From positions 13,578,001-13,642,000 of the forward strand of contig JBHGNT010000015.1 of the NCBI GenBank assembly GCA_043228905.1: DNA of 64,000 nt, in the 5' to 3' direction. Under the pieces are notes generated by a model. That model worked only from the letters and a program-made list of their open reading frames with translations. It made no database searches and was not told the origin of the DNA. How positions within the stretch are numbered: position 1 is the stretch's first letter; each line of letters opens with the position of its first letter. Below, piece after piece: positions 7,070 through 61,069 of the stretch. Source of the stretch: Azolla caroliniana. Its lineage: Eukaryota > Plantae > Polypodiophyta. Made by a program: the position numbers and the translations under genes.

Positions 7070-9639
7070 GCGCGCCATGCGGAGACCATCCACTACTCGG
7101 CGTCGGCACGAATCTGGGTCGGGAGTGATGAAGGCCGGAAGACGAAAGACTCCGGGTTCTGGCCGGTGGTGCTAGAAGGCCTCGCTGGCGTGCGGTTGAA
7201 AAGGGAGGAAGCGGACCGGGCGGACAGACGGATCCGGGAGGTTACCGGGTGGAGAGATCCGGTCGAAGAAAAGACCGGCTTTGTGGAAGCCGTGTGCCAA
7301 AACTACAAAGTTCTGGTAGAAGACAAGCGTGCGGGAAAAGCAGGAGGGGCCGGACCCTTGTAACGGTATGAGACCCGATCCGGGCCGAAGCAGAATGACG
7401 TCGGTGTTGCCGGCACACCGAATAAAGGAAAGAAAGCCGGTTACCGGTTGAGCATCGAGATAGAAAGAATGACGGACCTGCGGAAGGTCCTGGAGGAACG
7501 AATCCTTGACAACAAGGTTGAGTTTCGCTGAGGGAAGTGCTTGGGATCGCCAAGAATGAATTCCATGACTCCAACGTGGACTTGGTGAAGCAAAAAAGGC
7601 TTTTGACAGAGCCGGAGCCAGAGAGGCCGGTGGAGGTGCGAACGACGCACCTAGAAGACATGGCCCTGGAAGATGAGTTGGCGGAAAGCCACTATTCAAA
7701 GCCGCACTGGGCAAGAGCCACTCCGAAGATCCCGGTTAGGATCGGGGACGTCCAGGAGCCGGTGATGGCATTAGTAGACCACGGTTGGGAGATCAACCGG
7801 ATGTCGATGGACTTGTACAAGAAGGGCAACTGGCTGATCAACAAGAAGCAAGGGTGGAAAATACGAGCGGTGACGTGCGCCACGGAGGAGCTACATGGGG
7901 CCTGCCCGAATGTGCGGGTGAAAATCGGTGATGTCGAGATCGACCAACACTTCTTTGTGCAGGAGACATCGTGGCATCTGGTGATACTCGGAGAACCGTA
8001 CATTACGACAACACGTATGGAGATGAAAGTGTTGGATAACGGTTCAGCGTATGCACGCGTGAAGAGCCAAGATGGACGACACTCCGTCCAATTCGTGACC
8101 GTGCGACCGAACCATGAGCGCAACCGTGAGACCCTCGGTGGCGAAAGCCAAGGGGATTTTTAGAGAGGTCCATCAAGGTGTGGGGCCATGATAGTCCGGA
8201 CACCCCGGAGGATCCCCACACCTGTACCATAGGTCGGAAGTTCTGGTTCTCCGATAGCGAAGGTTGTACGATAGCCGACATCGTTAGCTTAGGAACATCT
8301 CAAGATATGTGGAGTCCTCGCCCCCAATGAGGAAATTAGTGGCGCCGTGGAGGTGGTCTCTTTCGACGACCCTTAGGGAAATCTGGAAGGTGATCGAAGA
8401 AGGCCTCGGTGAAGATCGGATGATTCCGGTTAACTTGGTGGAAATGTTCGAGGTCATTACTGACTTTGGGGAAAGGGTCAGGTCAGATCGGACGGCTTGC
8501 ATGTATACACGGTACAAGACTGTGGACCGGAAGGTGAGGCTAGTCGCGGCACCCTTGCCGGAGGGCAGCAAGTTACAGATGAAAGGGGTCGCATCGGACC
8601 CAAGTCTACTGGATTCGGCCGGCATAGGACACTGGTTCACCAACATAACGTTACGAGAGCTCAAGGTTGGTGGGGTTGGCTTTGTACGGAAGACGGAGGA
8701 GGAACGGTTTTAGAGAATGCTCGGGAGGCACGGGAAGGCCTTCGCATTCTCGCCGGAAGAGATCCGGTGCGTGGACCCGATGGTCGTTGAGCTGATGGAT
8801 ATTTTTATGGTACCGCATGTGCCGTGGAATCTCAAACCGATTCAAGTACCTAGAGCTCACATCCTGAAGCTGATGGAGTTGTTGAAGCAGAAGGTGGAGA
8901 TGGGCATCCTCGAACAATCGAGTGCCCCATATTCTAATCGGTGGTTTACCGTGCCTAAGAAGAATGGCACGTTGCGCTTCATTCAGGACCTGCAGCCGGT
9001 CAATAAAGTGACCATTCGAAACGCAGGAGTCGGACCGACGATCAGTTTGGAGAGGCCTTCGCCAGGAGGTCGATCTATTCAGTCGGGGATCTATACTCAG
9101 GGTACTACCAGTTCCACCTAGCCGAGGAGAGTAGGGATGTCACGATGATGCGGACACCTCTCGGCTTAGTGCGGATGTGTACCCTGTTGTAGGGAGGGAC
9201 AAACTCAGTGGCGCACATGGTGAATGTGATGAACAAGGTGGTGAGGGACTACATCCCGGACATCACCATGCCATTTCTGGACGATATACTGATAAAGGGG
9301 TGCCCGGTGGAGGATAAGGATGAAATGGTTGGGCCAGACGGATGCCTGACATTCGTGGCGTACCACATTGACGACTGCGAGAAGGTACTGCAAAGACTAC
9401 AGGGTGCGCGATTCACCCTCTCTAGAGAGAAGTCGGCTTCTCGAGCAGTCAGAGATCCTTGTGGTCGGTCATTTGTGCAGGCCTTACGGCCGGAAACCGT
9501 CTCCGGCAAAGATAGAGGCCATCTCTGTGATGAAGGAAGAATGCAAGTCGGTTATGGAGGTGCCGAGGTTCCTGGGGGCATGCGCGTTCTATCACATTTG
9601 GATACCACACTACGCACACGTTGCGGAACTGCTCTACGG
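7070..9639 (+). pseudogene. Inverted internal segment of Gypsy A: gag C-terminus, protease, spacer, RT
   Basis: ARHAETIHYSASA (gag), LVDHGWEIN protease, YKTVDRKVR, SAPYSNRWFTVPKK, MPFLDD. Many stops and frameshifts. Confidence 0.9.
8154..8228 (+). promoter_or_regulatory. Putative -1 ribosomal frameshift signal (G GAT TTT + TAG + stem-loop) between protease and RT, family A
   Basis: Heptamer 8154-8160 is in phase with ORF 7537-8163. AGGTGTGGGG (8176-8185) pairs with CCCCACACCT (8214-8223). The -1 frame is open to ~8330. Confidence 0.65.
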
Positions 9640-10669
9640 TGTCATGGCGTGGCTTGCCTAGAAGCGTAGCATTGCGTAGACAAAAGATATCGTGAAAGTG
9701 ACGAAGGAATCACTGGGATTATGGACGGAAGAGACGAAAGAGTAGAGATAGAGTAAATAGATATCAACAAGATATGACACAATAGGATATTGAATGATAT
9801 TTGAAGGAATAAAAGAGATTTATAATTATTTGATGAAAGAGTTACAAAAGTGGTTGTAAGCGTCGTTGATCCTTCAAACTTGGTCTCACAAGATAATCGC
9901 TCTTCTCTTTCTTGATAGTAGGCCACAACAGTCTTCACTTCAATATTTTGATGAAGATAGGGCTCGAACCGCCTCCCTCTTGTTGAGAGTTGACCACCAC
10001 GATCGCCAAGCTAGAGCTCCACCTTTATGTTGAACTTCTTCCTTTCTTTCCCTATTTTATTGTATCTCTTATGTAATATATTTGATTGATATCTCATACC
10101 TCTCCCCTTTTGATCTTTTCTTTCACCCTTTAAATAGGTGCCCCCATGCATATGATGCATTGGAGGGTACAAGACATGCATGTGATGCATGATAAACATC
10201 TCGCTCATTTGAGCTTTTATGTATGAAACAATATATGCAATAACAATAAACATGAAAATATAATCTTAAAGAGAAAGGACCTAGCCTAATGGTAGGTGTG
10301 TTGACTTTGGTGTATGAGGTTGTGGGATTGAGTCTCAAAATACTATTGAATACAACATACAACTTTATTTTGATATCATGAAGCAAATCCTTTATGTAAT
10401 ATAAAGTATGCTTTATTTTATGTATATTACTAGTATAGAGTAAATGGTAAGATTTGAGAGTCATAGGGTGGGGTTATTGGTTCAAGTCCTCTCTTGTTCG
10501 TGTAATATAATATATTTATCTACATATATTATTTTTCTTTACATATATATAATATTATCATATGTGTTGTTAATATTATCTTTATATATAAAACATTATC
10601 AAATGTTATTTTAGTTATGTATTTATCTTATTGTAGACTTTTAATGTGAAGCTTTCATACTTCACGACA
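9640..10669 (-). repeat. Gypsy B 3' LTR
   Basis: TGTCATGG...TTCACGACA, adjacent to the PPT. Confidence 0.95.
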
Positions 10670-15939: not shown

Positions 15940-15944
15940 AATTG

Positions 15945-16965
15945 TGTCGTGGCGTGGCTTGCCTAGAAACGTAGCGTTGGGTAGACAAAAGATATCGTGA
16001 AAGTGAGGAAGGAATCACTGGGATTATGGACGAAAGAGACAAAAGAGTAGAGATAGAGTACATAGAGATCAACAAAATATGACAAGATAGGATATTGAAT
16101 GATATTTGAAGGAATAAAAGAGATTTATAATTATTTGATGAAAGAGTTACAAAAGTGGTTGTAAGCGTCAATCGCTCTTCTCTTTCTTGATAGTAGACCA
16201 CCACAATCTTCACTTCAATATTTTGATGAAGATAAGGCTTGAACCGCCTCCCTCTTGTTGAGAGTTGACCACCACGATCGCCAAGCTAGAACTCCACCTT
16301 TATGTTGAACTTCTTCCTTTCTTTCCCTATTTTATGGTATCTCTTATGTAATATATTTGATTGATATCTCATACCTCTCCCTTTTTTATCTTCTCTTTCA
16401 CCCTTTAAATAGGTGCCCCCATGCATATGATGCATTGGAGGGTACAAGACATACATGTGATGCATGATCGCCATTTGGCGTTCATGCATTGCATGTGATG
16501 CATGATAAACATCTCGCTCATTTGAGCTTTTATGTATGAAAAAATATATGCAATAACAATAAACATGAAAATATAATCTTAAAGAGAAAGAAAGTATCTA
16601 GCCTAATGGTAGTTCTGTTGACTTTGGTGTATGACGTTGTGGGTTCGAGTATCAAAATACTATTGAATACAACATACAACTTTATTTTTATATCATAAGC
16701 AAATCCTTTATGTAATATAAAGTATGCTTTATTTTATGTATATTACTAGTATAGAGTAAATGGTAAGATTTAAGAGTCATAGGGTTGGGTTATTGGTTCA
16801 AGTCCTCTCTTGTTCGTGTAATATATATATTTATCTATATATATCTAATATTATCATATGTGTTGTTAATATTATCTTTATATATAAGACATTTTCAAAT
16901 GTTATTCTAGTTACGTATTTATCTTATTGTAGACTTTTAATGTGAAGCTTTCGTACTTCACGACA
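15945..16965 (-). repeat. Gypsy B 5' LTR
   Basis: TGTCGTG...CACGACA, adjacent to the PBS. Confidence 0.95.
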
Positions 16966-31440: not shown

Positions 31441-31510
31441 TCTCGAGTGTTCTATACCCTCTTTTCCTCTTAGTACTAATTTCCTCTCTGTCTCAGTACT
31501 ATTCCTGACA
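31106..31510 (+). repeat. Chromovirus 3' LTR (405 bp)
   Basis: TGTCA...TGACA termini after the PPT, TATAAAA at ~31290, (CT)n at ~31404-31438. Confidence 0.85.
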
Positions 31511-32781
31511 GTGGAACATCACCTTTCAATGGCACTGAGGGAGACCTGTTGATCAAATAAATGGTTGTATACATTGCCTCAGCCCAACACAATTTCGGCA
31601 ATTTAGCATGAGAGAGCATGCTCCTTACTCTTTCCATGATTGTTCGATTCATCCTCTCTGCAAGCTCATTCAACTCAGGGGTCTTTAGCATTGTGTTCGA
31701 TTTGAATACCTTGGGCCTTGTAGTACTTGGACAACCCTCTATATTTGCCACCATTGTCAGTTTAGACAACGTTCAACTTCCAACCCGACTCTCTTGCAGC
31801 CCTTGCCTGGAACTCCTTTAAAAACGACAGTACTTGGTCCTTCGACTTTAGTACGAAAGCCCACAACTTCCAACTGTAGTCATCAATGAACGTCACGAAG
31901 TATTGTGCACCGCGATGTGATGGAGCATCTACATATCACACATCCATGTGTACCAGTTCCAGTGGCACTTCTCTTCTTCTCAGTCGTCTTGAGTGGAATG
32001 CAACTCTGTTCTACTTTCAAACTAAGCAGTCGACACACTTCTCCAAGTGCACTCCTTTCACTTATGGGAGAAGTTCCTGATCAGCCATGATATGCATTCC
32101 CTTTTCACTCATGTGGCCTAGTCTCTCATGCCATAACTCTCCACTCGAGTTGGCTGCCACATTTGCTTCTGACTTGCACAGTCGGGCATGCATCATATAC
32201 AATGTGCCCTCTTTCTGTGCTCAGGCCACAATGAGGTTTCCTTGGCAGAACTTCCACTAGTCGTTTCGAAAGGTACCACTATAGCCTTCATCATCCAACC
32301 TTCCAGTCAATATCATATTCAATCTGATATCGTGGACATGTCGAACTTCCCTCAGAGTCAGTCGACAACCTCTCGACGTCATCAGGCTTACACTTCCTAT
32401 GCTGAATATCATGCATTCTCCATTATCTCCCATCTTTACATAGCCATGATCCCCATATGTGTAAATCAAGACACCCTCTCGATGGAGTTATATATGGAAA
32501 GATACACCCGAGTCGATTACCCAGGTACACTCTTCACTTGTAAGATTTGTGCTTGTCGGCTCGTAGCTACGGCTGATGTGCCCTTTTCGTCAAGAATCTT
32601 CCTTGATTCGACATTATTACCAACACCTTTGTTCTTCTTGAGGTGTCGGCAGTCCTTCTAGAAGTGTCCAGGCTTTTCATAATAAAAGCATGCCAGTTTG
32701 CCTCTAGACTTGGACCTGGCACTTCTTTGTGGACTCGTTTGCCATTACCTTCCTCTATAGGTATGTTGAGTCAGATTTGAT

Positions 32782-33227
32782 TGTTGAGAGATCAAGCTCA
32801 ACTTAGTTTAGTTAGTTAGTCAACACATGTAACTTAGTAGTTACCTAGATAGAATCTAGTTAGTGTGTTGACCATAAAGCCTTAAATAGGATTTTGTACT
32901 CGAGTGGGATACATTGTAGATCCACCACTCCATGCTCATTTAATATAAGACTAACACGTTGTACCTATATTCTCCTAGCACATGTGCACCCTTGCACATG
33001 AAACCTATATATACCTCATTGAAGGTATTTTTGTATTTGATGATAGTTGATGATATTTATCTTTTAATATACTTTATCATCCCCCATCTTGTTTTTGTGT
33101 TCATAAGTGTACTTCTCTCTCTCTTCCTCTCACGCACATATCACTTAATCTTCCGCTACGTAATTGCTTAACTAAATCACATAATTAAGTGATAATTATT
33201 CCTTAATTAATTACCTAATCCTTAACA
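32782..33227. mobile_element. Probable solo LTR
   Basis: TGTT...AACA termini, TATATA, interrupts E1 gag. TSD is not clean. Confidence 0.7.
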
Positions 33228-33625: not shown

Positions 33626-34475
33626 TTGTCCTTCCTTCTTGTCTCCTTGTTCAAGATACTTGTCTTTACCGCTTGTAGAGACAAGTTCTCTTCTTGACAC
33701 GAGGTGCTAAGAGTCACCACTAGGTTCTCCCAGCTATCCGACAGGGTACACAGTAGTAGTACTGTCTACATTGCATCCTCCAGGGGAAACTTGGTTGTCG
33801 CAAGTTGGTTCACATACCCATGAATGTGTTACGTGCTCCATTATACTTTCTCAGTCCCTGTATTTCAGCCTCACAATCTTTGTCATCAAACATGTTTTGT
33901 TGAGGGTGTTCTTCCTCTCATATACAGCTAACAACTTTTGCCACATCGTAGGCATTTGTGTCGTTCGCCACATGTTAAAGGACGCTTACATCAACGCACT
34001 ATCTGATGGTGGCCACCGCCTTGCTATTCAGAAGTTTCCATTCATACTCTAACACCCCCGTGGTTATTTCTGCTCTATCGATAGGCTCGTATGGTCTTTG
34101 ACTATGAGAAGGTCTTCCATCTTTAAGTTTATCTTCCATTCCACATAGTTGTGTGAACTATCATCCCTGGGAAGCCACTCACACCTCCATCCATGCTTGC
34201 ACCTCAAGCTCTGATACTAGTTTGTTGAGATGGAATCGTAAATCCCTCTTTGGAAGATACACAAAAATACATCGCTCGGAACAGAGAACAACAAATAGAC
34301 AAAATATACAATGCACATTGTTTTACGTGGATACCCTAAACAGATCTTCCACTATACACAGAGAATACAAAGAACGGTTACAACTCTTCTCTGATACTCA
34401 GAGGATAACCCCTTAGGGTTCTTGGCAGTCTTGCTAAACTTTGTCGCCTCTCTCTCTCTCTCTCTCTCTCTACAA

Positions 34476-35288: not shown

Positions 35289-38200
35289 GGTAAACGACCT
35301 GCCTAGAGCTTTCTTCAAGCTTCTGATCTTCTTTGTGTCTTGACCGACTATCAACATGTCATCAACATATAACAAGAGAATCGAGAATTCTCCTTCTTCG
35401 TACCTTTTGACGAACACACAGTGATCGGCTTGTGTTTTCTGGAACCGGTGTTCCATCATGAAGGACTCGAACTTCTTGTACCATTGGTGTGGAGCTTGTT
35501 TCAGACCATACAAGCTTTTCTTCAGTCGACACACCAGGTTCTCTTTCCCTTTCTCCTCAAAGCCTTCGGGTTGCTGCATGTAGATTTCTTCTTCTACCTC
35601 CCCGTGCAGGAATGTGGTTTTGACATCCAACTGTTCGATCTCATACTGGTCGCTATACTCAGAACAGTTCGAATGGATGTCATCTTCACGACTAGTGCGA
35701 ATAATTCGTCGAAGTCGACGCCCTTTTTCTGTTGAAAACCCTTCATCACTATGCGGGCTTTATACTTGGGCTCACTATCGGCTTCTCCAGTCTTCACCTG
35801 GTAGACCCACTTATTCCTGAGTGCTCTCTTAACTTTCGGTAGCTCTACCAGGTCGTAGGTGTAATTATCGTGCAGGGATTCCATCTCATCTTGCATTGCG
35901 CTCAGCCATTTCTCTCTATGCTCGTCAGCAATGGCTTCTTCATAGCACTCTGGTTCAACTTCATCAATCAAGAGGATGTATTGACTAGCATATGTTGTCA
36001 GTGCTTTCCTTTCTCTAAGTGGGTATCTCCTTCCACTCATTGTTGGCTCTCTTTTGGATGTCTCTGCTAACTCTTGTCTCCGCTCGGGTTCCTGCACATC
36101 AATCGGCATCTCCAAGTTGGACGACTCCAACTCATACTCTTCAATTGACCTTAGCAGCTCTGCCGACTCTGACTCATAGTCGGTCGGTCTCTGTGAGTCA
36201 ACCGACTCGGATTCAGCTTTGCCGACTGGCCGTCTCCGAACAACCGACGTTGTCGATTCACTTGACCTTAGATCGACGATAGTCGGACTTGTCTAGGGAG
36301 TCGTATCCGACTTCTGTTGCTTCTATTCTTCAATCATCTTATCTTTAAGAAAGACTATGTCCCGACTTCTCACTACCTTCCTGTCGACTAGGTTCCATAG
36401 CCTATAGCCGAACTCATCTTCCGAGTATCCCATGAATATGCATGCTTTTGACTTACTGTCGAGCTTTGACCTTTGATCCTTCGGCACATGCATATACCCC
36501 AAACATCCGAACACCCTCGGGTGTTGGTATGAGACATCCTTCCCTGTCACACTGTCTGTGGGTCATCACCCTTTAATGGTACTGAGGGAGACCTGTTGAT
36601 CAGATAAATAGTTGTGTACATCGCCTCACCCCAATAGGATTTTGGTAGTTTTGCATGAGAGAGCATGCTCCTTACCCTCTCCATGATTGTTCGATTCATC
36701 CTCTCTACAATCCCGTTCCACTCTGGGGTCTTTGGCACTGTGTATTCGATCCGAATACCTTGGCACTTGCAGTATTCCTCGAATTGCCCTCTATACTCGC
36801 CATCGTTGTTGGTTTGAACAACCTTCAACTTCTGACCCGACTCTCGTTTAGTTCTAGCCTGGAACTCCTTGAAAGCCAACAGTACTTGATCCTTCGACTT
36901 TAGTACAAAGGCCCATGTCTTCTGACTATAGTCGTCGATGAACGTCACAAAGTATTGTCCACCTCGATGCGATGGAGCATCTACATAACACACATCCGTG
37001 TGTACTAGTTCTAGTGTAGCTTCTCTTCTTCTTGGTGGTCTTGAGTGGAATGATGATCTGTTCTGCTTTCCGACTAAGCAGTCGACGCACTTCTCCAGGT
37101 GCACTCCCTTGACTTCTGGTAGAAGCTTTTGGTCGGCTAGCAGGTGCATTCCTTTCTCACTCATGTGGCCTAGCGTCTTATGCCATATCTCTCCTGTCGA
37201 GTCGGCTGCCACATTTACTTCCGATTTGCACAGTCGGGCATGCATCATATATAATGTGCCTTCTTTCTGTACTCGGGCCACTATAAGATTTCCTCGGCAG
37301 AACTTGCACGTGCCATTTCGAAAACTACCATTATAGCCTTCGTCATCTAACCTTCCAGTCGATATCAGATTCAATCTGATATCAGGGACGTGTCGAACAT
37401 CCTTCAAAGTCAGTCAACACCCTATCGACGTCGTCAAGCAGACACTTCAGACTCCGGTTATCTTGCACTCTCCAATATCACCCATTTTCACATAACCGTG
37501 ATCTCTATCTATGTAAGTCGAAAAATAATCTCTCGACGGAGTTACGTGAAACGATGCCTCAAAATCGATCACCCAAGTGCATTCTTCACTTGCAAGATTT
37601 GCACTTGTCTATTCACAAATGAACAACAGTTCTTCATTGCTCGTAGCAATGGCAGAAGTGTTCTTCTCATCAGGAATCTTCCTGGGTTCGACATTGTTTC
37701 CGACACCCTTGTCTTTTCTCATGTGTCGGCAGTCCTTCTAGAAGTCTCCAGGTTTACCACAATAAAAGCACACTAGCTTACCTGTGGACTTCGATCTAGC
37801 TTGGGACTTTTCTCTCCTTGGTGGACTTCTTTGCCGATTCCTTCCTCTGTCCGAATGTTGTGTTACATTCGACTCCGACTGGGACAACATTCGACTCCCT
37901 TGTCCTTCCTCCTCCTTGCCTCCTTGCCTCCTTGCCTCCTCATTTAGGATGCTTGTCTTTACAGTTTGTAAAGACAAGTTCTCTTCTTGACAAGAGATGC
38001 TAAGAGTAACCACCAGGTTCTCCCAGCTATCCGGCAGTGTGCACATCAGCAGAATGGCCTGCATCGCATCATCTAGGGGAAACTTGGTTGCAGCAAGTTA
38101 ATTCACATACCCCATGAATGTGTTGATGTGTTCGACGATGCTCTCGTCATCCCTCTATTTCAGCCATACGATCTTTCTCATCAGTGAGGTTTTATTGAGC

Positions 38201-38756
38201 GCGTTCTTCCTCTCATATAGACCTAACAACTTCTGCCACATCTCGTGTGCATTTGTGTCATTTGCCACATGTTGCAAGACACTTACATTGACGCATTGTC
38301 AAATGGTGGCCATCGCCTTTCTATTAAGAAATTTCCAATCCGACTCCAATAACCCTAGGTATATCTGCTCTATCGACTGGCTCGTACAGGTCTTTGACTA
38401 TGAGAAGGTCCTCCATCTTTATCTTCCATTTTGCATTGTTCTATGAGTTTAGAACTATCATGCTTGGGAAGCCACTCACACCTCCTTCCATGCTTGCACC
38501 TCAAGCTCTGATACCAGATTGTTGAGAATCGATTCGTAAAACCACAAGATCAAACGATGCTGAAAATACACAACACAGGCACACGACGACACAGTACACA
38601 GAGATTTACGTGGAAACCCTAAAAAATGGGAGAAAACCACGGGAGAGTAGAAACTTCACTATATAGTGGATGTACAAGGCAGAGTGAATCAAACAGTCGG
38701 TTCCTTCGACTCTTCGACTATTGGCTACTTCCAAACTGTCGGTTCCTCCCACTACA
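35289..38756 (-). mobile_element. Ty1/Copia E2, 3'-truncated
   Basis: gag, protease, integrase (VHTD...), RT YVDD. Met PBS 38505-38516, LTR 38520-38756. Confidence 0.9.
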
Positions 38757-39128
38757 GGGACATATCCCCAACAAAATTGTGGTTGATCATGGGGAGCTAG
38801 ACGCGCAGGAAGCGGAGGAGTTGTTCGACCGGCTAGGGGTCAAGCTCTCCCTCACCACGGCATACAATTTGTAAGTGAATGGGAAGGTCGAGAGAGGGCA
38901 CGGGCCGATTGTGAAAGCACTAGTGCGATCATGCAACATACGGGCTGAGAACTGGTCGAGGTTTCTTCCTTACCCAAGGTTTCTTCCTTACCCTTTGTGG
39001 GTTGACCGAACCACGCACAGTTTGGTGACCGGGTACATGCCGACCAAACTCATGTCTAGGCAGAAGCCGATCATGCTAGTGAAGCAAACAATCTCTTCAT
39101 GGATGGGGTCGACTAGACGGAGGAAATG
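38757..39128 (+). pseudogene. Gypsy A-like integrase fragment (continues at 48064)
   Basis: DHGELDAQEA...NGKVERGHGPIVKAL, WVDRTT. Confidence 0.85.
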
Positions 39129-39177: not shown

Positions 39178-39340
39178 AGACCCGGTGAGAACTGGATGAC
39201 GAGTGCCCGACAAGAGCCGGATGGTGAAGACCCGGTGAGAACCGGATGACGAGTGCCCGGCAAGAGCCGGATGGTGAAGGCCCGGTGAGAACCGGATGAC
39301 GAGTGCCCGGCAAGAGCCGGATGATGCAGGCCCGGTGAGG
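39178..39340. repeat. 50-bp tandem repeat (~3.2 copies) in the U3 of F
   Basis: CCCGGTGAG recurs at 39181, 39231, 39281, 39331. Confidence 0.95.
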
Positions 39341-42091
39341 AGGGCTCACCGGATGAAGGGACATATTCGTAAATATGTTTCTGAGAGTCCATTGGGGCTA
39401 TATTTGTAGATAGCCGAAAAGTCATATTAGTATAAATATGACTTAGGGCAAATTTAGTGAGTAGTTGTCATTCTTGTTGGTGCAAGATTTGAGTGCAACC
39501 GTGTACAGAGAGAGAGAGTGAGAGACGAAGAGGACATTGTCTCTGTTGTAACCGCCACCTGTGGCGAAGACAGTGAACAAGAGGTCGTTGCCTCTATGTT
39601 CATCTATTGTATATTGTAACATAGTGATAGTTTGCAGTCTGTGGACTACCGTGGTTTTTCCCGTGTTTTTGTTTTCCACGTAAACATCCTGTGTACTCTT
39701 CTCTTTATTGTGTCGTGCGTACATTACCCGTTTTTCTGTGTTTGATCCTAGACTCGGTTGTGGCCGAGCGTTGTTTTTCGGGAGCGTGTAGTCCTTTCAA
39801 AGTGGTATGAGAGCGAAACGACACAGAAAATGGATGATTTGTTGGGAGGCATGTTCAAGCTCACCGGCTCCAACTATTCAGTGTGGAAGTCGAAGATGAG
39901 GGACATGATCATGGTTAAAGATCTTTGGTTGCCGGTTCAGTTCAGGGACAAGAGACCGGACAAAATCGATGCCACGATATGGGAGGTGATGCACAAGAAG
40001 ACAACGACGTTCATATGGTGCTTCATCGACATGAGTCTATACAACAACTTCAATGAAGAGAGCAAGGCTCATGAGGTCTAGGAGAAGATCGGCATTATGT
40101 TTCAGAACAAAAATGTTGTTAATCAGGTTTCGGTATTTCGGAAGCTAGTAAGACTCTGGTACCAAGATGGCTCCAGCAAGGCGGAGCACATGAATGCCTT
40201 CCAGGGGCTGATCCACCATGCAACATCATTGGAAGTACCTCTCGCTAATGAGGTACTAGCACTACTCCTGCTCGGTTCCCTCCCAAATAGCTAGGAGACG
40301 TTGGTTGTCACTTTGGGCAACGCCGGGCCGGAAGGGAAACGGTTATCCCTAGCAAGAGTGAAGTCAAGCTTGCTAGATGAGGAGGCGTGTCGGAAAGATA
40401 AGGATATGAGCTCTGACTCCAAAGCGCTCCTTACCGAATCGGAACGCAAAAGACAAAGGAACTGTAGTCCCCAGAACCGGGAAAAGTCGGGGACACGGTC
40501 AAAGTCAAGGGGAAGGCCTACTTGCTCATATTGCGGCAAGCCGGGACACTTCCAGAAGAACTGTCGGCACTTCTGAAAAGACAAGAAAACCGACGGTACC
40601 GATTCGAAGCGGACACCGGACCGGAACAGTAAAGACCGGAGGGGAATGGACTAGAAGAGAGCAATGGCAATCGCAGCATGTGAAGAAGAGTTGATGCTCA
40701 TCACCGAGGAGAGTGAGCTAAACCTTGCCGACAACGAGATGACCTGGGTGGTCAACTCCGGAGCGTCGTTCCACCTTACCCCGAACCGGAAATGCTTCTC
40801 ATCCTACTCGGTCGGTGATCACAGTTGTGTCCGTATGGGGAATGAAGGTACCTGCCGAATTGTCGGCATGGGAGACGTGTGGTTGACAACCCCAACCGGA
40901 TGCAAGCTGCTGCTGAAGGATGTCCGACACGTTCTGGAGGTTCGATTGAACCTAATATCAGCCGGTCGGCTAGATGATGAAGGCTTCATGGGTAGCATCC
41001 GGAACGGTGTCATGAACTTCAGCAAAGGGCGCCTGATTGTGGCTCGGGCCCGGAAGGTCAACACGATGTACCTGATGAATGCCCGGTTATACTCGGAAGA
41101 AATGAACGTGGCATCCGACACTGCCGGTGAGTTGTGGCACAAGAGGTTGTGTCACATGAGCGAGAAGGGGATGAAGAGGCTTACAGACGACAACCTCATT
41201 CCAGTGAAGAACGTGCACTTGGAGAAGTGTACTGATTTTCTGGCTGGTAAACAAAACCGAACCTCCTTCCGATCGAGGCCACTGATGAGACGTAATGCAC
41301 TACTGGAGTTGGTGCATACTGATGTGTGTCAAGTGGACACGAAGTCACATGCAGGATCGCAGTACTTCGTGACGTTCATAGATGACCACAGCCGGAAGCT
41401 GTGGGCCACACCGTTGAAGACGAAGGATCAGGTGCTATCCGTCTTCAAAGAGCTCCACACGAGAGTGGAAAGAGAAACCGGCCGGAAGCTGAAGGTGGTT
41501 CGAGCAGATAACGAAGGTGAATACCGGGGGCAATTCGAGGAGTACTGTCGCTCGAAGGGAATCCGGCTCGAATTTACCATGCCGAAGACGCCGGAACTAA
41601 ACGGGCTGGCTGAGAGATTGAACCTGTTGAAAAAAACAGTGCTCGGCCACAACCGAGGAATAGGATCAACTCACAGAAAACAGGAAATACAAAAAATGCA
41701 CGAGGACAATAGAGAGAAAAGGTACACTGGATATTTTACGTGGAAAACCCTAAATGGGAAAAACCACGGGAGTCCTCAAACTCCAACTATCACTATGAAC
41801 AGGGATGTACACTGGTGAAGCTGCAAGGCAACAACCTTGAGCTCACTGTCTTCGCCACAGGCGGCGGTAATACACAGAGGCAACGACCTCTTCGTCTCTC
41901 TCTCTCTCTCTCTCTCTCTGGGCTGCTCTCACTTCGCATAAAAATGAGCAACAACCTAAAACTGATTGCCCTAAGTCATATTTATACACATATGACTTTC
42001 GGGCTATTTACAAATATAGCCTCAAGGGCTCTTGGCAAAACATATTCACAAATATGTCCCCGCATCCGGATCTCTCTCCGGGTACATTCGT

Positions 42092-42235
42092 CATCCGGCT
42101 CCGTAACCGGGGTCTTTAGCATCCGGCTCCGTAACCGGGGTCTTCAGCATCCGGCTCCGTAACCGGGGTCTTCAGCATCCGGCTCCGTAACCGGGGTCTT
42201 CAGCATCCGGCTCCGTAACCGGGTACTCTTCATCC
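42092..42235. repeat. 28-bp tandem repeat, 5 copies (3 copies at 46893-46980 in the other LTR)
   Basis: Unit CATCCGGCTCCGTAACCGGGGTCTTCAG. Confidence 0.95.
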
Positions 42236-42322
42236 TACGGTTCCGTAACAGCCTCCGGGCTTGCCGTCATTCATCTCCGGACATCCCATCCGGAGGGACC
42301 GAAATCCCAACAAACTCCCCCT

Positions 42323-45300
42323 TCACTTCGGCATGGGATGTCTCTCCAATCCGATCCTCTTCCGGCATGCTTCCAGCTTGTCGGGTGTGAGCACCTTGGT
42401 CAGCATATCCGACCCGTTCTCGTTCGTGTGGACCTTCGTCAGCACGAACTCCTTGTCCTCTATCCTTTCCCGGATCCAGTGGTATCTACGCTGGATGTGC
42501 TTCGTCCGGGAGTGATAGGCCGCGTTCTTCGCAAGGTGGATGGCACTCTGACTGTCGCAGTAGAGTCGGTACTCCTCCTGCCGGATACCGAGCTCTCTAA
42601 TGAAGTCCTTCATCCATATTATTTCCTTGCCGGCTTCAACAGCCGCCATGTACTCCGCCTCCGTGGTTGACAACGCAACCGTCTTCTGCAGCCTCGACTG
42701 CCACGAAACAGCTCCCCCTGCATACGTCATCACATACCCTGATGTGGACCGGCTGGTATCTGCATCAGCCGACATATCCGAATCGGTAAAGCCGTCGAGT
42801 TCGGGCTTTCGAGAGCCAAATCGGAGGCACACGTTTGCCGTGCCCTTCAGGTATCGGAGTATCCACTTGACCGCGTTCCAGTGCTCTTTGCCGGGATTTC
42901 TCATGTACCGGCTCACCACTCCGACTGCGTATCCAATGTCCGGTCTTGTACACACCATTGCGTACATCAAGCTTCCAACGGCAGAGGCATATGGCACTTT
43001 CATCATGTCCTCCTTCTCAGCCTTTGTCTTGGGGCTTTGCTTGCTGGACAGCTTGCAGTTTGCCGGGAGGGTCGATCCGACCGGTCTTGCTTCCGACATG
43101 TTGAACCGTTTAAGCACCTTTGTCACGTACTTCTCTTGTGACAGCCACAACTGCTTCTTGCTCCGGTCCCGGATGATGTGCATCCCTAGTATTTGTCTCG
43201 CCGGACCCAAGTCCTTCATTGAGAAGGTTCGGTGAAGAGCCTTCTTCAGCATCCGTATCTTGACCTGGTCCCGTCCGACGATCAACATGTCGTCCACGTA
43301 CAGGAGGAGTATTAGAAAGTCTCCTCCTTCGAACTTCTTCACAAACACGCAGTGGTCGGACTGCGTTTTGAGGTACCCTTCGTCGATCATGAAGGAGTCG
43401 AACTTCCGGTACCATTGCCGGGGAGCCTGCTTCAGTCCGTAAAGGCTCTTCTTCAACCGGCATACCAGGTGCTCCTTCCCTTTCTTCTCGAATCCTTCCG
43501 GTTGCTGCATGTAGATCTCTTCTTCGAGGTCACCGTGAAGGAATGCCGTCTTCACGTCCATCTGTTCTACCTCGAGGTCCATGCTTGCCGCTATGCTCAG
43601 CACCGTCCGGATGGAGGTCATCTTCACTACCGGGGCAAATATCTCGTCGAAGTCGACGCCCTTCTTCTGCTGAAACCCCTTCACCACGATCCTGGCTTTG
43701 TATCTCGGGGGGTTTCCGGCATCTCCCGGTTTCAGCTTGAACACCCACTTGTTTCGTAGTGCCCGCTTTCCTTTCGGCAACTCCACAAGTTCATATGTGT
43801 GGTTCTCATGCAGGGAATCCATCTCGTCCTGCATGGCACTCAACCACCTGCGGCTCTGGGTGTCATGCTTTGCTTCTTCAAAGCTCTCCGGCTCCCCCTC
43901 GTCGGTTAGCAGCACGTGCTCTGGTTCCGGAAATCTCCGGGGGGCCCTTCTCTCTCTTAGAGGATATCTCCGTTCCGGAGCTTCGGTAACCGGTTCTTCC
44001 GATTCTTCTTCATCCGAATCCATTTCGGGATCGGGGCCGGTTCCGGTATCATTTTCATCTTCTTCGGCCGGTTCTGTTTCTTCACCGTCTTCGGCCGGAT
44101 CCTCGAGTGCTAACCGGTCCCTTGCCGGTCGGGACTGCTCCTCGTAGAGTTTATCCTCACCGGTCGACTTGGAGCTCTTCATCTTCTTCTCCGACTCCCA
44201 GTTGGCGAGTGTCTTGTCCTCCATGAAGATGATATCTCGACTCCTGAATATCTTCTTGTCGACCGGGTCCCATACTCGGTAGCCGAACTCGTCGTCGCCG
44301 TAACCGAGGAATATGCATGGCCGGGTCTTTGGATCTAACTTTCCTCTCCGGTCCTTTGCCACATGCACGTATGCGAGACACCCGAACACCTTCAGATGCC
44401 GGTAGGACACTTCCTTACCGGTCCACACTTTCTGCGGCGTGTCTCCGTCCAAAGGTACTGAGGGTGATCTATTTATCACATACGTCGCCGTCGACATTGC
44501 CTCAGCCCAAAATCCCTTGGGTAATTTCGCATGCGCCAGCATACTCCGGACCCTCTCCATTATGGTCCGGTTCATTCTCTCGGCCAGCCCGTTCAGTTCC
44601 GGCGTCTTCGGCACAGTAAACTCGAGCCGGATTCCCTTCGAGCGACAGTACTCCTGGAACTGCCCCCGGTATTCTCCTCCGTTATCCGCTCGTATCGCTT
44701 TCAGCTTCTTGCCGGATTCCCTTTCCACCCTCGCGTGGAGTTCTTTGAAGACGGACAGTACTTGGTCCTTTGTCTTCAACGGTGCCGTCCACAGCTTCCG
44801 GCTGTGATCATCAATGAATGTTACGAAGTACTGGGCTCCGCCATGTGACTTCGTTTCTACCTGACACACATCAGTATGCACCAACTCCAATGGTGCGCTA
44901 CGTCTCGTCGGTGGCCTTGAGTGGAAGGAGGTTCGGTTTTGCTTACCGGCCAGACAGTCGGTGCACTTCTCCAGGTGCACATGCTTCACTGGAATAAGGT
45001 TGTCTTCTGCAAGCCTCTTCATCCCCTTCTCACTCATGTGGCACAGTCTCTTGTGCCACAGCTCACCGGCAGTGTCGGCTGCCACATTCAGCTCTTCCGG
45101 ACATAACCGGGCATTCATCAGGTACAGTGTGTTGTCTTTCCGGGCCCGAGCCACTATCAGGCTCCCCTTGCTGAACTTCATTACGCCGTTCCGGATGCTA
45201 CCTGTGTAGCCTTCATCGTCTAGCCTCTCGGCCGAAATCAGGTTCAATCGAACCTCCGGAACGTGTCTGACATCCTTCAGCAGCATTTTGCATCCGGTCG

Positions 45301-46396
45301 AGGTTGTCACCCACACGTCTCCTATGCCGGCAATCCGGCACGTACCTTCATTTCCCATCCGAACACAGCCATGCTCACCGGCTGTGTAGGATGAGAAGTA
45401 TCTTCTCTCCGGGGTCAGGTGGAACGATGCTCCGGAATCGACCACCCAGGTCGTCTCATCGCCGGCAACGTTTAGTTCACCTTCTTCGGTGATGAGCATG
45501 ATTTCTTCCTCACTTGCCGCGAGTGCCGTCGTTCCTTTCCGGTCCTGCCCTCGCCGATCAGGACCTCTCCGGTCCGTGGCTCCCCGGTATGCACCGTTTC
45601 TCTCCGGTGACTTCTTCGAATCGGTGTCGTCGGCTCCGTTGTCCTTTCGGTAATGCCGACAATTCTTCCGGAAGTGCCCCGGCTTCCCACAGTGGAAGCA
45701 TGTGGGCCTTCCTCTTGACTGCGACCGGGTCCCCGACTTCTCCCGTCTTTGCGGACTCCGGTTCCGTTGTCTTCCCCGATCCGATTCGGTAAGCAGCGCC
45801 TTCGAGTCGGAGACCGGTTCTTTATCTCTCCGACGCGCTTCTTCGTTCAAAATACTTGTCTTTACCGTTTGTAGGGACAAGTTGTCTTCCGTGCAGGAGG
45901 TGCTGAGAGTCACCACCAAGTTCTCCCAGCTTTCCGGTAATGTACACATCAGAATGATGGCTTGCATTGCATCCTCCAACGGGAACTTAATCGCCGCAAG
46001 CTGGTTCACGAATCCCATGAACGTGCTCACGTGTTCCACCATATTCTCGCCGTCCCGGTACTTGAGGTTCACTATTTTCCTCATCAGGGAGGTCCGGTTC
46101 AACGCATTCTTCCTCTCGTAGAGGCCCGACAGCTTCTTCCACATCTCATATGCGTTGGTGTCGTTCGCCACATGTTGTAGGACGCTTACATCGACATATT
46201 GCCGAATCGTCGCTACGGCTTTCCGGTTCAGGAGCTTCCACTCCGACTCTATTACTCCCTTGGGTATCTCGGCATTGTCGATCGGTTCGTACAGGTCTCG
46301 GACGATGAGAAGGTCTTCCATCTTTATCTTCCAGTCGGCGTAGTTCTGTGAGTTCAACACCATCATGCCCGGAGGCCCACTAACGCCGCCTTCCAT
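42323..46396 (-). CDS. Copia Gag-Pol polyprotein (1357 aa from the ATG at 46396)
   Basis: CFHCGKPGHFRKNC, VVDSGAS, HKRLCH..CTDC, D-D-E integrase, YVDD, RNase H (TDSD, EAE, CDS). No stops. Confidence 0.97.
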   Translation of the reverse strand: MEGGVSGPPGMMVLNSQNYADWKIKMEDLLIVRDLYEPIDNAEIPKGVIESEWKLLNRKAVATIRQYVDVSVLQHVANDTNAYEMWKKLSGLYERKNALNRTSLMRKIVNLKYRDGENMVEHVSTFMGFVNQLAAIKFPLEDAMQAIILMCTLPESWENLVVTLSTSCTEDNLSLQTVKTSILNEEARRRDKEPVSDSKALLTESDRGRQRNRSPQRREKSGTRSQSRGRPTCFHCGKPGHFRKNCRHYRKDNGADDTDSKKSPERNGAYRGATDRRGPDRRGQDRKGTTALAASEEEIMLITEEGELNVAGDETTWVVDSGASFHLTPERRYFSSYTAGEHGCVRMGNEGTCRIAGIGDVWVTTSTGCKMLLKDVRHVPEVRLNLISAERLDDEGYTGSIRNGVMKFSKGSLIVARARKDNTLYLMNARLCPEELNVAADTAGELWHKRLCHMSEKGMKRLAEDNLIPVKHVHLEKCTDCLAGKQNRTSFHSRPPTRRSAPLELVHTDVCQVETKSHGGAQYFVTFIDDHSRKLWTAPLKTKDQVLSVFKELHARVERESGKKLKAIRADNGGEYRGQFQEYCRSKGIRLEFTVPKTPELNGLAERMNRTIMERVRSMLAHAKLPKGFWAEAMSTATYVINRSPSVPLDGDTPQKVWTGKEVSYRHLKVFGCLAYVHVAKDRRGKLDPKTRPCIFLGYGDDEFGYRVWDPVDKKIFRSRDIIFMEDKTLANWESEKKMKSSKSTGEDKLYEEQSRPARDRLALEDPAEDGEETEPAEEDENDTGTGPDPEMDSDEEESEEPVTEAPERRYPLRERRAPRRFPEPEHVLLTDEGEPESFEEAKHDTQSRRWLSAMQDEMDSLHENHTYELVELPKGKRALRNKWVFKLKPGDAGNPPRYKARIVVKGFQQKKGVDFDEIFAPVVKMTSIRTVLSIAASMDLEVEQMDVKTAFLHGDLEEEIYMQQPEGFEKKGKEHLVCRLKKSLYGLKQAPRQWYRKFDSFMIDEGYLKTQSDHCVFVKKFEGGDFLILLLYVDDMLIVGRDQVKIRMLKKALHRTFSMKDLGPARQILGMHIIRDRSKKQLWLSQEKYVTKVLKRFNMSEARPVGSTLPANCKLSSKQSPKTKAEKEDMMKVPYASAVGSLMYAMVCTRPDIGYAVGVVSRYMRNPGKEHWNAVKWILRYLKGTANVCLRFGSRKPELDGFTDSDMSADADTSRSTSGYVMTYAGGAVSWQSRLQKTVALSTTEAEYMAAVEAGKEIIWMKDFIRELGIRQEEYRLYCDSQSAIHLAKNAAYHSRTKHIQRRYHWIRERIEDKEFVLTKVHTNENGSDMLTKVLTPDKLEACRKRIGLERHPMPK

Positions 46397-48011
46397 TTTC
46401 TGTGTTACCGTCGCTCTAATACCAGTTTGTTGAAAAAAACAGTGCTCGGCCACAACCGAGGAATAGGATCAACTCACAGAAAACAGGAAATACAAAAAAT
46501 GCACGAGGACAATAGAGAGAAAAGGTACACTGGATATTTTACGTGGAAAACCCTAAATGGGAAAAACCACGGGAGTCCTCAAACTCCAACTATCACTATG
46601 AACAGGGATGTACACTGGTGAAGCTGCAAGGCAACAACCTTGAGCTCACTGTCTTCGCCACAGGCGGCGGTAATACACAGAGGCAACGACCTCTTCGTCT
46701 CTCTCTCTCTCTCTCTCTCTGGGCTGCTCTCACTTCGCATAAAAATGAGCAACAACCTAAAACTGATTGCCCTAAGTCATATTTATACACATATGACTTT
46801 CGGGCTATTTACAAATATAGCCTCAAGGGCTCTTGGCAAAACATATTCACAAATATGTCCCCGCATCCGGATCTCTCTCCGGGTACATTCGTCATCCGGC
46901 TCCGTAACCGGGGTCTTCAGCATCCGGCTCCGTAACCGGGGTCTTCAGCATCCGGCTCCGTAACCGGGTACTCTTCATCCTACGGTTCCGTAACAGCCTC
47001 CGGGCTTGCCGTCATTCATCTCCGGACATCCCATCCGGAGGGACCGAAATCCCAACAGAACCGGACCATAATGGAGAGGGTCCGGAGTATGTTGGCGCAT
47101 GCAAAACTACCCAAGAAGTTTTGGGTTGAGGCACTGTCAACAACGACGTATGTGATAAACAGATCACCCTCAGTACCCTTGGACGGAGACACGCCACAGA
47201 GAGTCTGAACCGGTAAGGAAGTGTCCTACCGGCATCTGAAGGTATTCGAGAGTCTCGCGTACGTGCATGTTGGAAAGGACTGGAGAGGAAAGTTGGATCC
47301 GAAGACCTGGCCATGCATATTCCTTGGTTACGGTGACGATGAGTTCGGCTACCGAGTGTAGGACCCGGTTGACAAGAAGGTATCCCGGAGTCAAGATATT
47401 ATCTTCATGGAGGACAAAACGCTCGCCGACTGGGAGTAGGAGAAGAAGATAATGAACTCCGAGTCGACCGGTAAGGATTGATTCTACGATGAGCGGACCC
47501 AACCGGCAAGAGACTCGTTAGCACTCGATGAACCGGCCGGTGACGGTAAGGAGACAAGACAGGCCGAAGAAGAAGGAATAGGTGAAATGGAACTGGCCAA
47601 GACCGATGAGGGAGAGCCGGAAAGCTTTGAAGAAGCGAAGGAAGACACCCACAGCCGCAAATGGTTAAGTGCCATGCAGGATGAGATGGATTCCAAGCAT
47701 GAGAACCATACGTACGAATTGGTGGAGTTGCCGAAAGGAAAGCGGGCACTCCGAAACAAGTGGGTGTACAAGTTGAAACCGGGAGATGCCGACAACCCCC
47801 CAAGATACAAAGTCAGGATCGTGGTGAAGGGGTTCCAGCAGAAGAAGGGCGTTGCCTCTGTGTTCATCTATTATATATTGTAGCATAGTGATAGTTTGCA
47901 GTTTGTGGACTGCTGTGGTTTTTCCCGTATTTGGGTTTTCCACGTAAACATCCTATGTACTCTTCTCTTTACTGTGTCGTGCGTACATTACCCGTTTTTC
48001 TGTGTTTGATC

Positions 48012-48226
48012 CTAGACTCGGTTGTGGCCGAGCGTTGTTTTTCGGGAGCTTATAGTCCTTTCAAAATGAGCTTGTAGGAGCTGTTGGCAGCACAGATCCA
48101 ACAACTTGAGCGTACACTAGACTCGGTTGTGGCCGAGCGTTGTTTTTCGGGAGCTTATAGTCCTTTCAAAATGAGCTTGTAGGAGCTGTTGGCAACACAG
48201 ATCCAACAACTTGAGCGTACACTAGA
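48012..48226. repeat. 105-bp tandem duplication spanning the F LTR end, TSD and flank
   Basis: CTAGA at 48012, 48117, 48222. The two copies differ at one base by eye. Confidence 0.95.
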
Positions 48227-59436: not shown

Positions 59437-60600
59437 CTACTTTACAATGTCGTGGCCGAGCCTGAGCTCGAGGTCTACTAATTTACTAGGCGGATTGGCA
59501 CCCGGACACTCGAATTTGTAGTTCATGTCCATCCCTAATCCGTGGTCTAATTTGAAGGGCTTCTTGGTGAGTCTCGGGCTATGGCTTCTTAAGATTTGGA
59601 GATCAATGGAGTCATGGGTAGTCTTAGTAGTAGCAGTAGTAGAAGTAGTAGAAGTAATAGTAGTAGTAGTAGGAGGAGTGATGATCAAAGGGTGATTGAA
59701 TGATGTTCTGCTTGGCCGTGGGTGATTGTGGTTAGAAATCTTGGCAGGGAGATCGCGGATATGCTCGGTCGAATCCGAGGCCCTCGATGGCATTAGGTAT
59801 TTGGTGGGCAATGGTTTAGCGGAGAAGAAGAAATCCGGGGAGAAAATGGTTGTTCCCTTGGACGGGTGTGGAGTCGGAGGGGTGGTCGTGGTAGTGGTCA
59901 TTACGGACAAAGCATCGGGTGGCGGTGAGATGATAGAAGAATTGGGCGGGGGTGGCGAGGAGGATTGGCGGAGGCGAGCTCGGTCACGGCGGTGCACATT
60001 CATGTGTCCGCCGAGGGCTTGGGCAGATCGGAACTCGCGCCGGCAGAAGGTACAATGGTAGGAGCGCGGCGGCCACACGCCCGTGGCTAGGCCGGCCGCC
60101 GCATCCTCATCATTATCATCATTGGCCAGCATCCGCGCCCGCCCCATGTCCGCGCCCACGCTCCCCCATGTCTGGGACACGCCCAAATTTTGAATGGCAT
60201 TCGACAAAGTGTTAGAATTGTGGGAATGATGTCCCGGAACCGCCGCCGCGCCTTGGTGATTCTGTTGTCGCTTGTTGTGATCATAACTGTAAACTTGAGG
60301 GTTTCTATTCATAGAGAAGAGATTGGTGATCGAGTTGTTGCGGATCGGTGGCATCGTCGTAATTGTGGTTAACGAGGAAGCGGTCGGTTGTTGTTGTTGC
60401 TTTCGGCCACGCCCGGCCATTGTCATCGCCAGTAGTTGGTGGTGCTGCCCACATAAGGGCACATTCACACCAGCAGCCCCATTGTCATCATCATCATCAT
60501 CATCGCCACCATCATCATTATGAAAAGGGCTACTAGTTGTGGTGGTAGTGGTCATGCCATGAACTGCCATGTAGTTATAATAAGGCTTGTTGGCCGCCAT
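59437..60600 (-). CDS. SUPERMAN/ZFP10-11-like single C2H2 zinc-finger transcriptional repressor (QALGGH, C-terminal EAR motif), intronless, 387 aa
   Basis: [37 protein letters not shown] and terminal DLELRLG. Low-complexity D/Q/T/P tracts. Confidence 0.95.
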
Positions 60601-61069
60601 ACGAAGTGGTCAGGGGTGTGGTGCGGATGGCTCGGCACCGGATCGGCCTCTCAATTGCGCTTCATCTATCTATTTCTGCTATCATTTTAGGGGGCAATGA
60701 CACATTCCCGAGCCGAGCTTCAAGTTATTTCGCTTCCTAGTCTCCGGTGGCCCTTACTCCTCCACATAGCTCGTCGTCCTTCGCACTCCTATAAATTTAA
60801 ATCCGGGCCGAGAACCTAAGCACCTTAGCTAGCTTCTGCTTCAATAATAAACCGGTCAATCGATCGATCTCATCGAAATGGCTCACCCTCCCCCCTCCCC
60901 CCCCCCACACACACAAACACAAACACAAAACACATGCACAAGCACAAATTACAAGCACCTTAGCTAGCTTCTTCGAAATATATGAACTCGATGGGTCAAG
61001 AGAATTTAGGGTACACCCGAAAGCGTTGCTTCTAGCTTGTCGATCGATAGATCCACTGATCCATCAATA

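What the first reader, a model, noticed from the sequence alone, without database searches (positions are those of the whole stretch)
45830..46412. Intact Copia G looks like a capsid-swap recombinant of two families present in this window
Seen: G's LTR, leader (..ACACAGAAAATGGA) and everything from SDSKALLTES onward match family F, including HKRLCH and the 1-aa-shorter LIPVK. However, G's Gag from the ATG to EEARR (MEGGVSG...WKIKMEDLLIV...MCTLP.SWENLVVTLS...NLSLQTVKTSILNEEARR) matches family E and is very different from F's (MDDLLGG...WKSKMRDM...). Breakpoints fall at the start codon (shared ATGGA) and at the end of the capsid domain. Inference: template switching between co-packaged RNAs made a modular chimera, and it is the only intact young element here.
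Basis: partly seen in the sequence, partly recalled or inferred. Interest (0 to 1): 0.72.

Follow-up and report, generated by a model that had tools for sequence, protein, structure and literature searches.

The report
Plant retrotransposon with a borrowed capsid
A young, very abundant family of plant jumping genes carries the particle-shell (capsid) part of one retrotransposon lineage on the body of another, likely through a template switch during copying; such swaps are known from yeast, but here the direction is resolved and the same capsid sits on two different bodies.

Summary
Confirmed and extended. G (41625-47057, minus) is an intact Copia element with substitution-free LTRs, nested in an F copy. 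Its capsid (codons 1-~186) is 81% identical to family E and 39% to F; its integrase and RT are 91-92% to F and 68-73% to E. Direction is resolved: in pol and nucleocapsid trees G nests inside three lineages carrying F-type capsids, while its capsid arises from the E radiation. G is the recipient. The swap is old: older chimeras date from F's era. G is their recent burst: 937 exact junction matches, median LTR divergence 0.25% versus 3.7% for F. The same captured capsid also sits on a deeper backbone (L387), whose junction is bridged in two other runs, so it moved at least twice. Template switching is inferred; any benefit is untested. Gag swaps are published for yeast Ty1 and fission-yeast elements; I found no capsid-exact plant Copia case in 8 searches.

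The parts
46428..47057 (-). G 5' LTR (630 nt, TG...CA), F-lineage type
   Evidence: 0 substitutions against the 3' LTR in 630 columns; 79-85% nt to F's LTR
46413..46424 (-). Primer-binding site TGGTATTAGAGC, one base off the family's TGGTATCAGAGC (tRNA-Met type: label recalled)
46397..46412 (-). Short leader ending ACACAGAAA, shared with F and H1 and unlike E's; 5' crossover inferred at the start codon (ATGGAAG shared by H1 and E)
45830..46396 (-). Captured capsid domain, Gag codons 1-189, E-lineage origin
   Evidence: PF14223 at aa 28-193; aa 15-187 match aa 12-181 of the Copia VLP protein, PDB 8s41, E 1e-19; trees
45836..45850 (-). 3' crossover zone at N-E-E-A, where the parental lineages are nearly identical
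45452..45829 (-). Nucleocapsid region with zinc knuckle, F-lineage type
   Evidence: PF00098; 75% aa to F, 47% to E; sister to F 100/98
42323..45451 (-). Protease, integrase, RT and RNase H in the same ORF, F-lineage type
   Evidence: 87-92% aa to F; pol tree
42315..42323 (-). Polypurine tract AAGGGGGAG
41625..42312 (-). G 3' LTR (688 nt)
41620..41624 (+). Target-site duplication GAACC, left copy (right copy at 47058-47062)
39190..41624 (+). Host F copy, 5' part (LTR, F-type capsid 39830-40395, to mid-integrase); decayed, 4 stops in the Gag-Pol frame
47058..48068 (+). Host F copy, 3' part (rest of integrase, start of RT, internal deletion, LTR piece)
35289..38780 (-). Decayed E2 copy (capsid 37940-38491), relative of the capsid donor
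33628..34228 (-). Decayed E1 capsid, separated by an insertion from its pol fragment at about 31500-32800

Best explanation
G is a chimeric Copia family: an E-lineage capsid domain sits on LTRs, leader, nucleocapsid and pol of the F lineage, likely joined by template switching during reverse transcription of two co-packaged RNAs. Shown: the mosaic, its two boundaries, that G's lineage is the recipient, that all captured capsids form one clade arising from an E1-like donor, that older chimeras (G0) precede young G, and that this capsid clade occurs on both an F-type and an H2-type backbone. Inferred: minus-strand synthesis on the backbone RNA jumped to the donor RNA at the shared N-E-E-A codons. 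One jump would already give backbone LTRs plus donor capsid, because both lineages share the primer-binding site used for plus-strand transfer. The F-type leader implies a second crossover at the start codon. Exact domain boundaries likely reflect both local homology and selection for a whole capsid fold with its own nucleocapsid. The chimeric lineage exchanged pol with F early on, then likely became isolated and burst recently.
For: Domain identities. Pol tree (P0010,((P0001,E),(H2,(H1,(F,G))))) with 100/98-100/100 on the nodes enclosing G; nucleocapsid tree the same. The capsid tree keeps (H2,(H1,F)) but puts G with E and P0001 at 100/100. AU tests reject G with F/H in capsid (p 0.0002), G with E in pol (p 0.0008) and F+H1+H2 without G in pol (p 0.0098). 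Nucleotide capsid tree: 18 chimeric capsids form one clade, 100/100, inside the E/E1 radiation. G0 capsid versus undecayed E1-like L385 has pS 0.41, against 0.78 in protease. The switch is sharp at codon ~185 in G, G0 and L387. Each junction takes its own backbone's codons right after E-E. Domains are freely shuffled among 19 G copies (rho -0.20 to 0.59), none with an F-type 300-nt window. Such shuffling is what reverse-transcription recombination gives according to PMC6894440 (passages and section 9 read).
Against: No direct test separates template switching from DNA-level recombination. Co-packaging of RNAs from lineages with about 40% capsid identity should be rare (PMC6894440, passages). 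With few rows the protein tree could not resolve G, E and P0001 (p 0.42), and E monophyly is not rejected in the nucleotide tree (p 0.064), so the donor may be a close sister of sampled E. Young G versus E is saturated at synonymous sites (pS 0.80), which alone would not point to E. The H2-backbone chimera rests on one metagenome contig plus three short bridging contigs and had 0 exact matches in this genome. Its order relative to the F-backbone chimera is unresolved (p 0.38).
Confidence: 0.72

Rival explanations
1. Same chimera, made at the DNA level: gene conversion or ectopic recombination between integrated (or cDNA and integrated) E and F/H copies replaced the capsid between two short homologies, and the product then transposed.
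For: E, F and G copies lie side by side and nested. A two-crossover replacement fits a conversion tract. The S. osmophilus paper names both routes (10.1101/2022.12.06.519325, passages).
Against: Flanking homology is only about 7-14 nt with 60% identity or less inside. The 5' boundary falls beside the primer-binding site, as reverse transcription predicts. G copies are shuffled throughout.
Confidence: 0.17
2. F alone (or each F-type lineage) gained a foreign capsid, and the G/E capsid similarity is ancestral.
For: The F/H capsid sits on a long stem away from E (0.61), and outgroup P0010 has a more E-like capsid (56% to G, 43% to F). An older change at the base of H2/H1/F is therefore possible (AU p 0.10-0.15, not significant).
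Against: It needs three parallel gains in an order congruent with pol. G-E capsid identity (81%) exceeds G-E integrase and RT identity (68%, 73%). Chimeric capsids nest within E.
Confidence: 0.05
3. The donor came from another host by horizontal transfer or introgression, as for yeast Ty1, and was not a resident E subfamily.
For: The captured capsids have a 0.079 stem away from sampled E. No element with a G-type capsid start and a non-F backbone turned up (23 of 23 hits were G). The H2-backbone chimera was seen only outside this genome.
Against: E1-like copies close to the base of the captured clade are resident here, and their ages overlap the older backbones.
Confidence: 0.15
4. Assembly artefact or one-off dead chimera.
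For: Repeats are hard to assemble.
Against: 937 exact junction matches against 0 for the reversed control. 30 of 30 position-ordered loci have a G-type capsid. Copies have their own target-site duplications and intact ORFs.
Confidence: 0.01

Closest known systems
S. cerevisiae canonical Ty1 versus Ty1' (PMC7055915; abstract and section 10 read)
   Same: A Copia-superfamily element gained gag from another lineage by recombination onto a resident backbone, polarised by discordant gag and pol trees.
   Different: The donor was horizontally transferred from S. paradoxus, the whole gag plus parts of pol moved, and a Gag-derived restriction factor is proven there. Here only the capsid domain moved, between lineages 39% identical in capsid, in a plant, with no restriction factor shown.
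Fission-yeast Tf1/Tf2 and Tosmo1-3 (10.1101/2022.12.06.519325; passages read)
   Same: Near-identical pol with Gag only 32-55% identical; the divergent block starts just after the primer-binding site; Gag-directed defence is proposed as the driver.
   Different: Gypsy-type elements lacking a zinc knuckle; direction was not resolved in the passages read. Here a ladder of ancestors, intermediates and burst ages is available.
Recombinant centromeric retrotransposons of grasses (PMC4079200; abstract and section list only)
   Same: Recombination between subfamilies produced prolific plant elements.
   Different: Gypsy chromoviruses; I did not read whether any breakpoint pair isolates the capsid.
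Tnt1/Batata-like (Tork) Ty1/copia elements (PMC6317226; passages and section 10 read)
   Same: Single ORF GAG-PROT-INT-RT-RH, 5-bp target-site duplication, TGGTATCAGAGC primer site; nearest named hits are TNT 1-94-like proteins and an Ipomoea batatas element at 57% in aa 290-730.
   Different: That survey left GAG out of its phylogenies and removed chimeric-looking elements, so capsid swaps would be invisible to it.

Membership tests
Ty1/copia LTR retrotransposon | [quoted passage not shown] | tested here: met
   PF14223, PF00098, PF22936, PF13976, PF00665, PF07727 in that order; RNase H placed by motif only
Ty1/copia LTR retrotransposon | TG...CA LTRs, primer site, polypurine tract, 5-bp target-site duplication | tested here: met
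Tork lineage (REXdb) | Clusters with Tork references in RT/RH/INT trees to the exclusion of other lineages | tested here: inconclusive
   Nearest named hits are Tnt1-like, but my trees held no references of other lineages
Tork lineage (REXdb) | Primer site complementary to the 3' end of a full tRNA-Met | not tested
   Motif TGGTATCAGAGC seen; its assignment to tRNA-Met is recalled, no host tRNA was compared
Gag-swap recombinant (Ty1/Ty1', Tf1/Tf2 type) | Discordant gag and pol trees with sharp breakpoints | tested here: met
Gag-swap recombinant (Ty1/Ty1', Tf1/Tf2 type) | Recipient and donor lineages identifiable | tested here: met
   Recipient; donor E1-like (exact subfamily open)
Ty1-like copy-number-control escape | A Gag-derived restriction factor specific for one capsid type | not testable with these tools
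   No functional data; pN is far below pS on all capsid comparisons within the E-type clade
Horizontally transferred donor | Donor capsid closer to another host's element than host divergence allows | tested here: inconclusive
   hosts of the metagenome loci and coded runs are unknown

The most novel reading that the evidence does not exclude
The capsid is an exchangeable cassette that sets which retrotransposon RNAs and proteins can share a particle. Capturing it, repeatedly and at the same two boundaries, splits a new lineage from its parent family and frees it from capsid-specific interference by the more than 1,000 decayed F copies or by a host factor. That would be a plant counterpart of Ty1 copy-number control driving the succession from F to G.
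Probability: 0.2. Interest if true: 0.75.

Novelty: new member of a known kind. Interest (0 to 1): 0.5.

Why it matters
Plant LTR classification and dating rest on RT/INT/RH and leave Gag out (PMC6317226, passages), so a domain-exact capsid replacement between distant lineages goes unseen. PMC6894440 (section 9) says only a handful of such distant recombinations are documented. This genome preserves donor-like, ancestral, intermediate and bursting forms in hundreds of copies. That makes it a ready test of whether capsid identity isolates retrotransposon lineages and whether Gag-directed restriction operates in plants.

Tried and rejected
(1) A full-length search with the F capsid found no relative of 803-2290 aa (weak evidence). 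(2) I first read library fragments as outgroups from other organisms; P0227 is 99% identical to this genome, so they are not independent. (3) I first concluded from saturated pS that the donor was far from E; older chimeras showed this is change accumulated along G's own line. (4) Reciprocal recombinant (E leader + F-type start): 1 hit, an ordinary E copy. (5) Donor search by start-codon context: 23 of 23 hits were G. (6) A second, older capsid swap at the base of H2/H1/F was not significant. (7) No sign of positive selection in whole-domain pN/pS; no site-level test was run. (8) No RNA holder listed; nothing is concluded on expression. (9) The F columns are invalid (coordinate error) and were not used. 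(10) The careful tree did not finish and was replaced. (11) G0 dating is thin: 4 of 8 copies aligned (4.6, 5.5, 6.2, 15.9%), 4 did not. (12) The H2-type junction pattern had 0 matches in this genome, and no listed piece bridged it in runs X1 or X6 (32 of 1541 pieces shown). (13) No structure or complex prediction was run. (14) Literature searches. No supplements were read, and the subscription papers cited in PMC6894440 (e.g. Vicient 2005, Du 2010) were not seen and may hold plant precedents.

Full report
OBSERVATION. G occupies 41625-47057 on the minus strand. It has one 1357-aa ORF, LTRs of 630 and 688 nt with no substitution in 630 columns, and a GAACC duplication inside the integrase of an F copy. 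It is the only long intact frame in the window. Pfam gives the Copia domain order. Codons 15-187 match the solved Copia capsid 8s41 over its residues 12-181 of 187, so the segment in question is the capsid domain. Along G, similarity goes F, then E, then F.

FAMILIES. Searches of the host genome (523 Mb; a plant, by my reading of its elements and of a zinc-finger gene) gave three multi-copy families with constant capsid/backbone combinations. With 8 G, 5 F and 10 E proteins the identities were: capsid G-E 81%, G-F 39%; nucleocapsid 47%, 75%; integrase 68%, 91%; RT 73%, 92%. Exact leader-start patterns count 937 G-type, 1133 F-type and 284 E-type, with reversed controls 0. These are lower bounds, and the G pattern also catches older chimeras. 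Of the first 30 G-pattern loci by position, 30 have a G-type capsid (one truncated) and 29 a G-type nucleocapsid.

AGES. Of the first 20 loci of each pattern on contig C1, 17 G and 14 F could be dated: median LTR divergence 0.25% (0-0.93) versus 3.74% (1.16-12.15), p 2.5e-6. A full or near-full ORF remained in 8 of 20 G and 1 of 20 F. E copies with a recognisable LTR pair were 85-93% identical, indels included.

DIRECTION. Three families cannot polarise the event, so I looked for relatives of the F capsid and found two older resident lineages, H1 and H2, with F-type capsids. Trees used 4 G, 3 F, 3 of 10 H1, 5 of 10 H2, 6 of 20 E and 11 outside proteins; the other H copies were truncated or nested, and the E rows were among the most complete. 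Pol gives (P0010,((P0001,E),(H2,(H1,(F,G))))) with starred support on the nodes around G, and the nucleocapsid agrees. The capsid tree keeps H2,(H1,F) but moves G next to E and P0001. AU tests reject G with F/H in capsid (p 0.0002) and reject G outside F+H1+H2 in pol (p 0.0098). G's lineage is therefore the recipient. Whether the F/H capsid itself came from an earlier swap is open (p 0.10-0.15).

DONOR AND HISTORY. Young G is saturated against E at synonymous capsid sites (pS 0.80) while G-F pol is at about 0.33. A metagenome scan (54 loci, 15 examined) supplied the missing links. L385 is a little-decayed E1-like copy whose capsid is 89% identical to G's. L386 has an F-type leader, an E-type capsid and an F-like nucleocapsid. 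L387 has an E-type capsid on H2-type sequence. Searching the genome with L387 returned 30 loci of older chimeras, G0, with integrase mostly closer to F than to young G. In a nucleotide capsid tree all 18 chimeric capsids form one clade (100/100) inside the E/E1 radiation, with young G at the tip of a ladder. E monophyly is not rejected (p 0.064), so the donor was E1-like or a close sister. In the backbone tree G0 and G are sister to F, one chimera (L439) groups with F itself, and L387 groups with H2 (90/85); capsid type changes at least 4 times on that tree. G0 LTRs differ by 4.6-6.2% in three copies and 15.9% in one, and 4 of 8 were undatable. The swap thus dates to F's era or before and did not by itself trigger the G burst.

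SECOND BACKBONE. L387's LTR and downstream part match H2 best, and its switch falls at the same codon. Its junction had no exact match in this genome. Contigs with 3-5 differences bridge it in runs X8 and X4, which carry organism labels other than the best holder's. The captured capsid therefore moved between backbones at least once more; the order is unresolved (p 0.38).

BREAKPOINTS AND MECHANISM. At the 3' end E and F share ATGAGGAGGC, and the codons after E-E-A follow each backbone. At the 5' end H1 and E share ATGGAAG, while G0 and G keep the F/H1 leader. Inference, from the reverse-transcription scheme in PMC6894440 (passages) and my own knowledge: one switch at the capsid end suffices to put a donor capsid between backbone LTRs, because plus-strand transfer uses the shared primer site; the F-type leader needs a second crossover at the start codon. 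Among 19 G copies, domain distances correlate weakly (rho -0.20 to 0.59) and no 300-nt window is closer to F than to another G. This fits frequent switching within G and isolation from F, though F was mostly inactive by then. DNA-level conversion is not excluded. Whole-domain pN/pS shows purifying selection only, so an arms-race benefit is untested.

KNOWN CASES. Yeast canonical Ty1 gained gag by transfer and recombination (PMC7055915, abstract and section 10). Tf1/Tf2 and Tosmo1-3 differ in a block from the primer site through Gag (10.1101/2022.12.06.519325, passages). Grass centromeric elements include prolific recombinants (PMC4079200, abstract and outline). Intra-family recombination during bursts is reported in PMC5668417 (search listing only). 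Eight searches listed no capsid-exact swap in a plant Copia; the library lacks most subscription papers and I read no supplements. Earlier notes of this scan did not bear on it.

VERDICT. A real, well-polarised capsid replacement (about 0.95 for the swap, 0.9 for G as recipient, 0.72 for the whole account with template switching). It is a new member of a known kind, notable for domain-exact boundaries, recurrence on two backbones and a preserved series of intermediates. Interest 0.5.

Noticed in passing
window 46413-46424 and 46384: This G copy has a one-base change in its primer-binding site and reads V at Gag position 5 where other G copies read G, despite substitution-free LTRs.
   Followed up: partly
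window 42062-42249 and 46863-46994; 39194-39340: G and F LTRs hold tandem 28-nt repeats whose copy number varies between the two LTRs of one element (58-nt length difference in G) and among copies.
   Followed up: no
G family, L321-L340 and L200: Within G the capsid is the most diverse domain (mean 7.3%, max 14.3% nt) and RT the least (mean 2.5%); at least five capsid subtypes are shuffled against pol.
   Followed up: partly
G versus F, 300-nt windows in integrase and at the start of RT: Two windows differ by only 5-9% against 12-15% in most others, possibly later pol exchange between F and G or stronger constraint.
   Followed up: no
F/H1/H2 capsid: The F-type capsid is on a long stem and as far from E as seed-plant-type outgroups are, although its pol is sister to E; an older swap is possible but was not significant.
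   Followed up: partly
L439 (G000:C13:18362165-18365922): Chimeric capsid on a backbone that groups with F rather than with other chimeras (97/93).
   Followed up: no
window 59437-60609 (+): Intronless 390-aa frame with a single C2H2 zinc finger ([14 protein letters not shown]) and a C-terminal DLELRL motif, SUPERMAN-like (label recalled); apparently the only host gene among the long frames.
   Followed up: no
window 6198-7072 versus 9637-10504 and 15944-16820: Long inverted and direct repeats at 94-99% among gypsy-type LTR pieces, suggesting nested or inverted young insertions.
   Followed up: no
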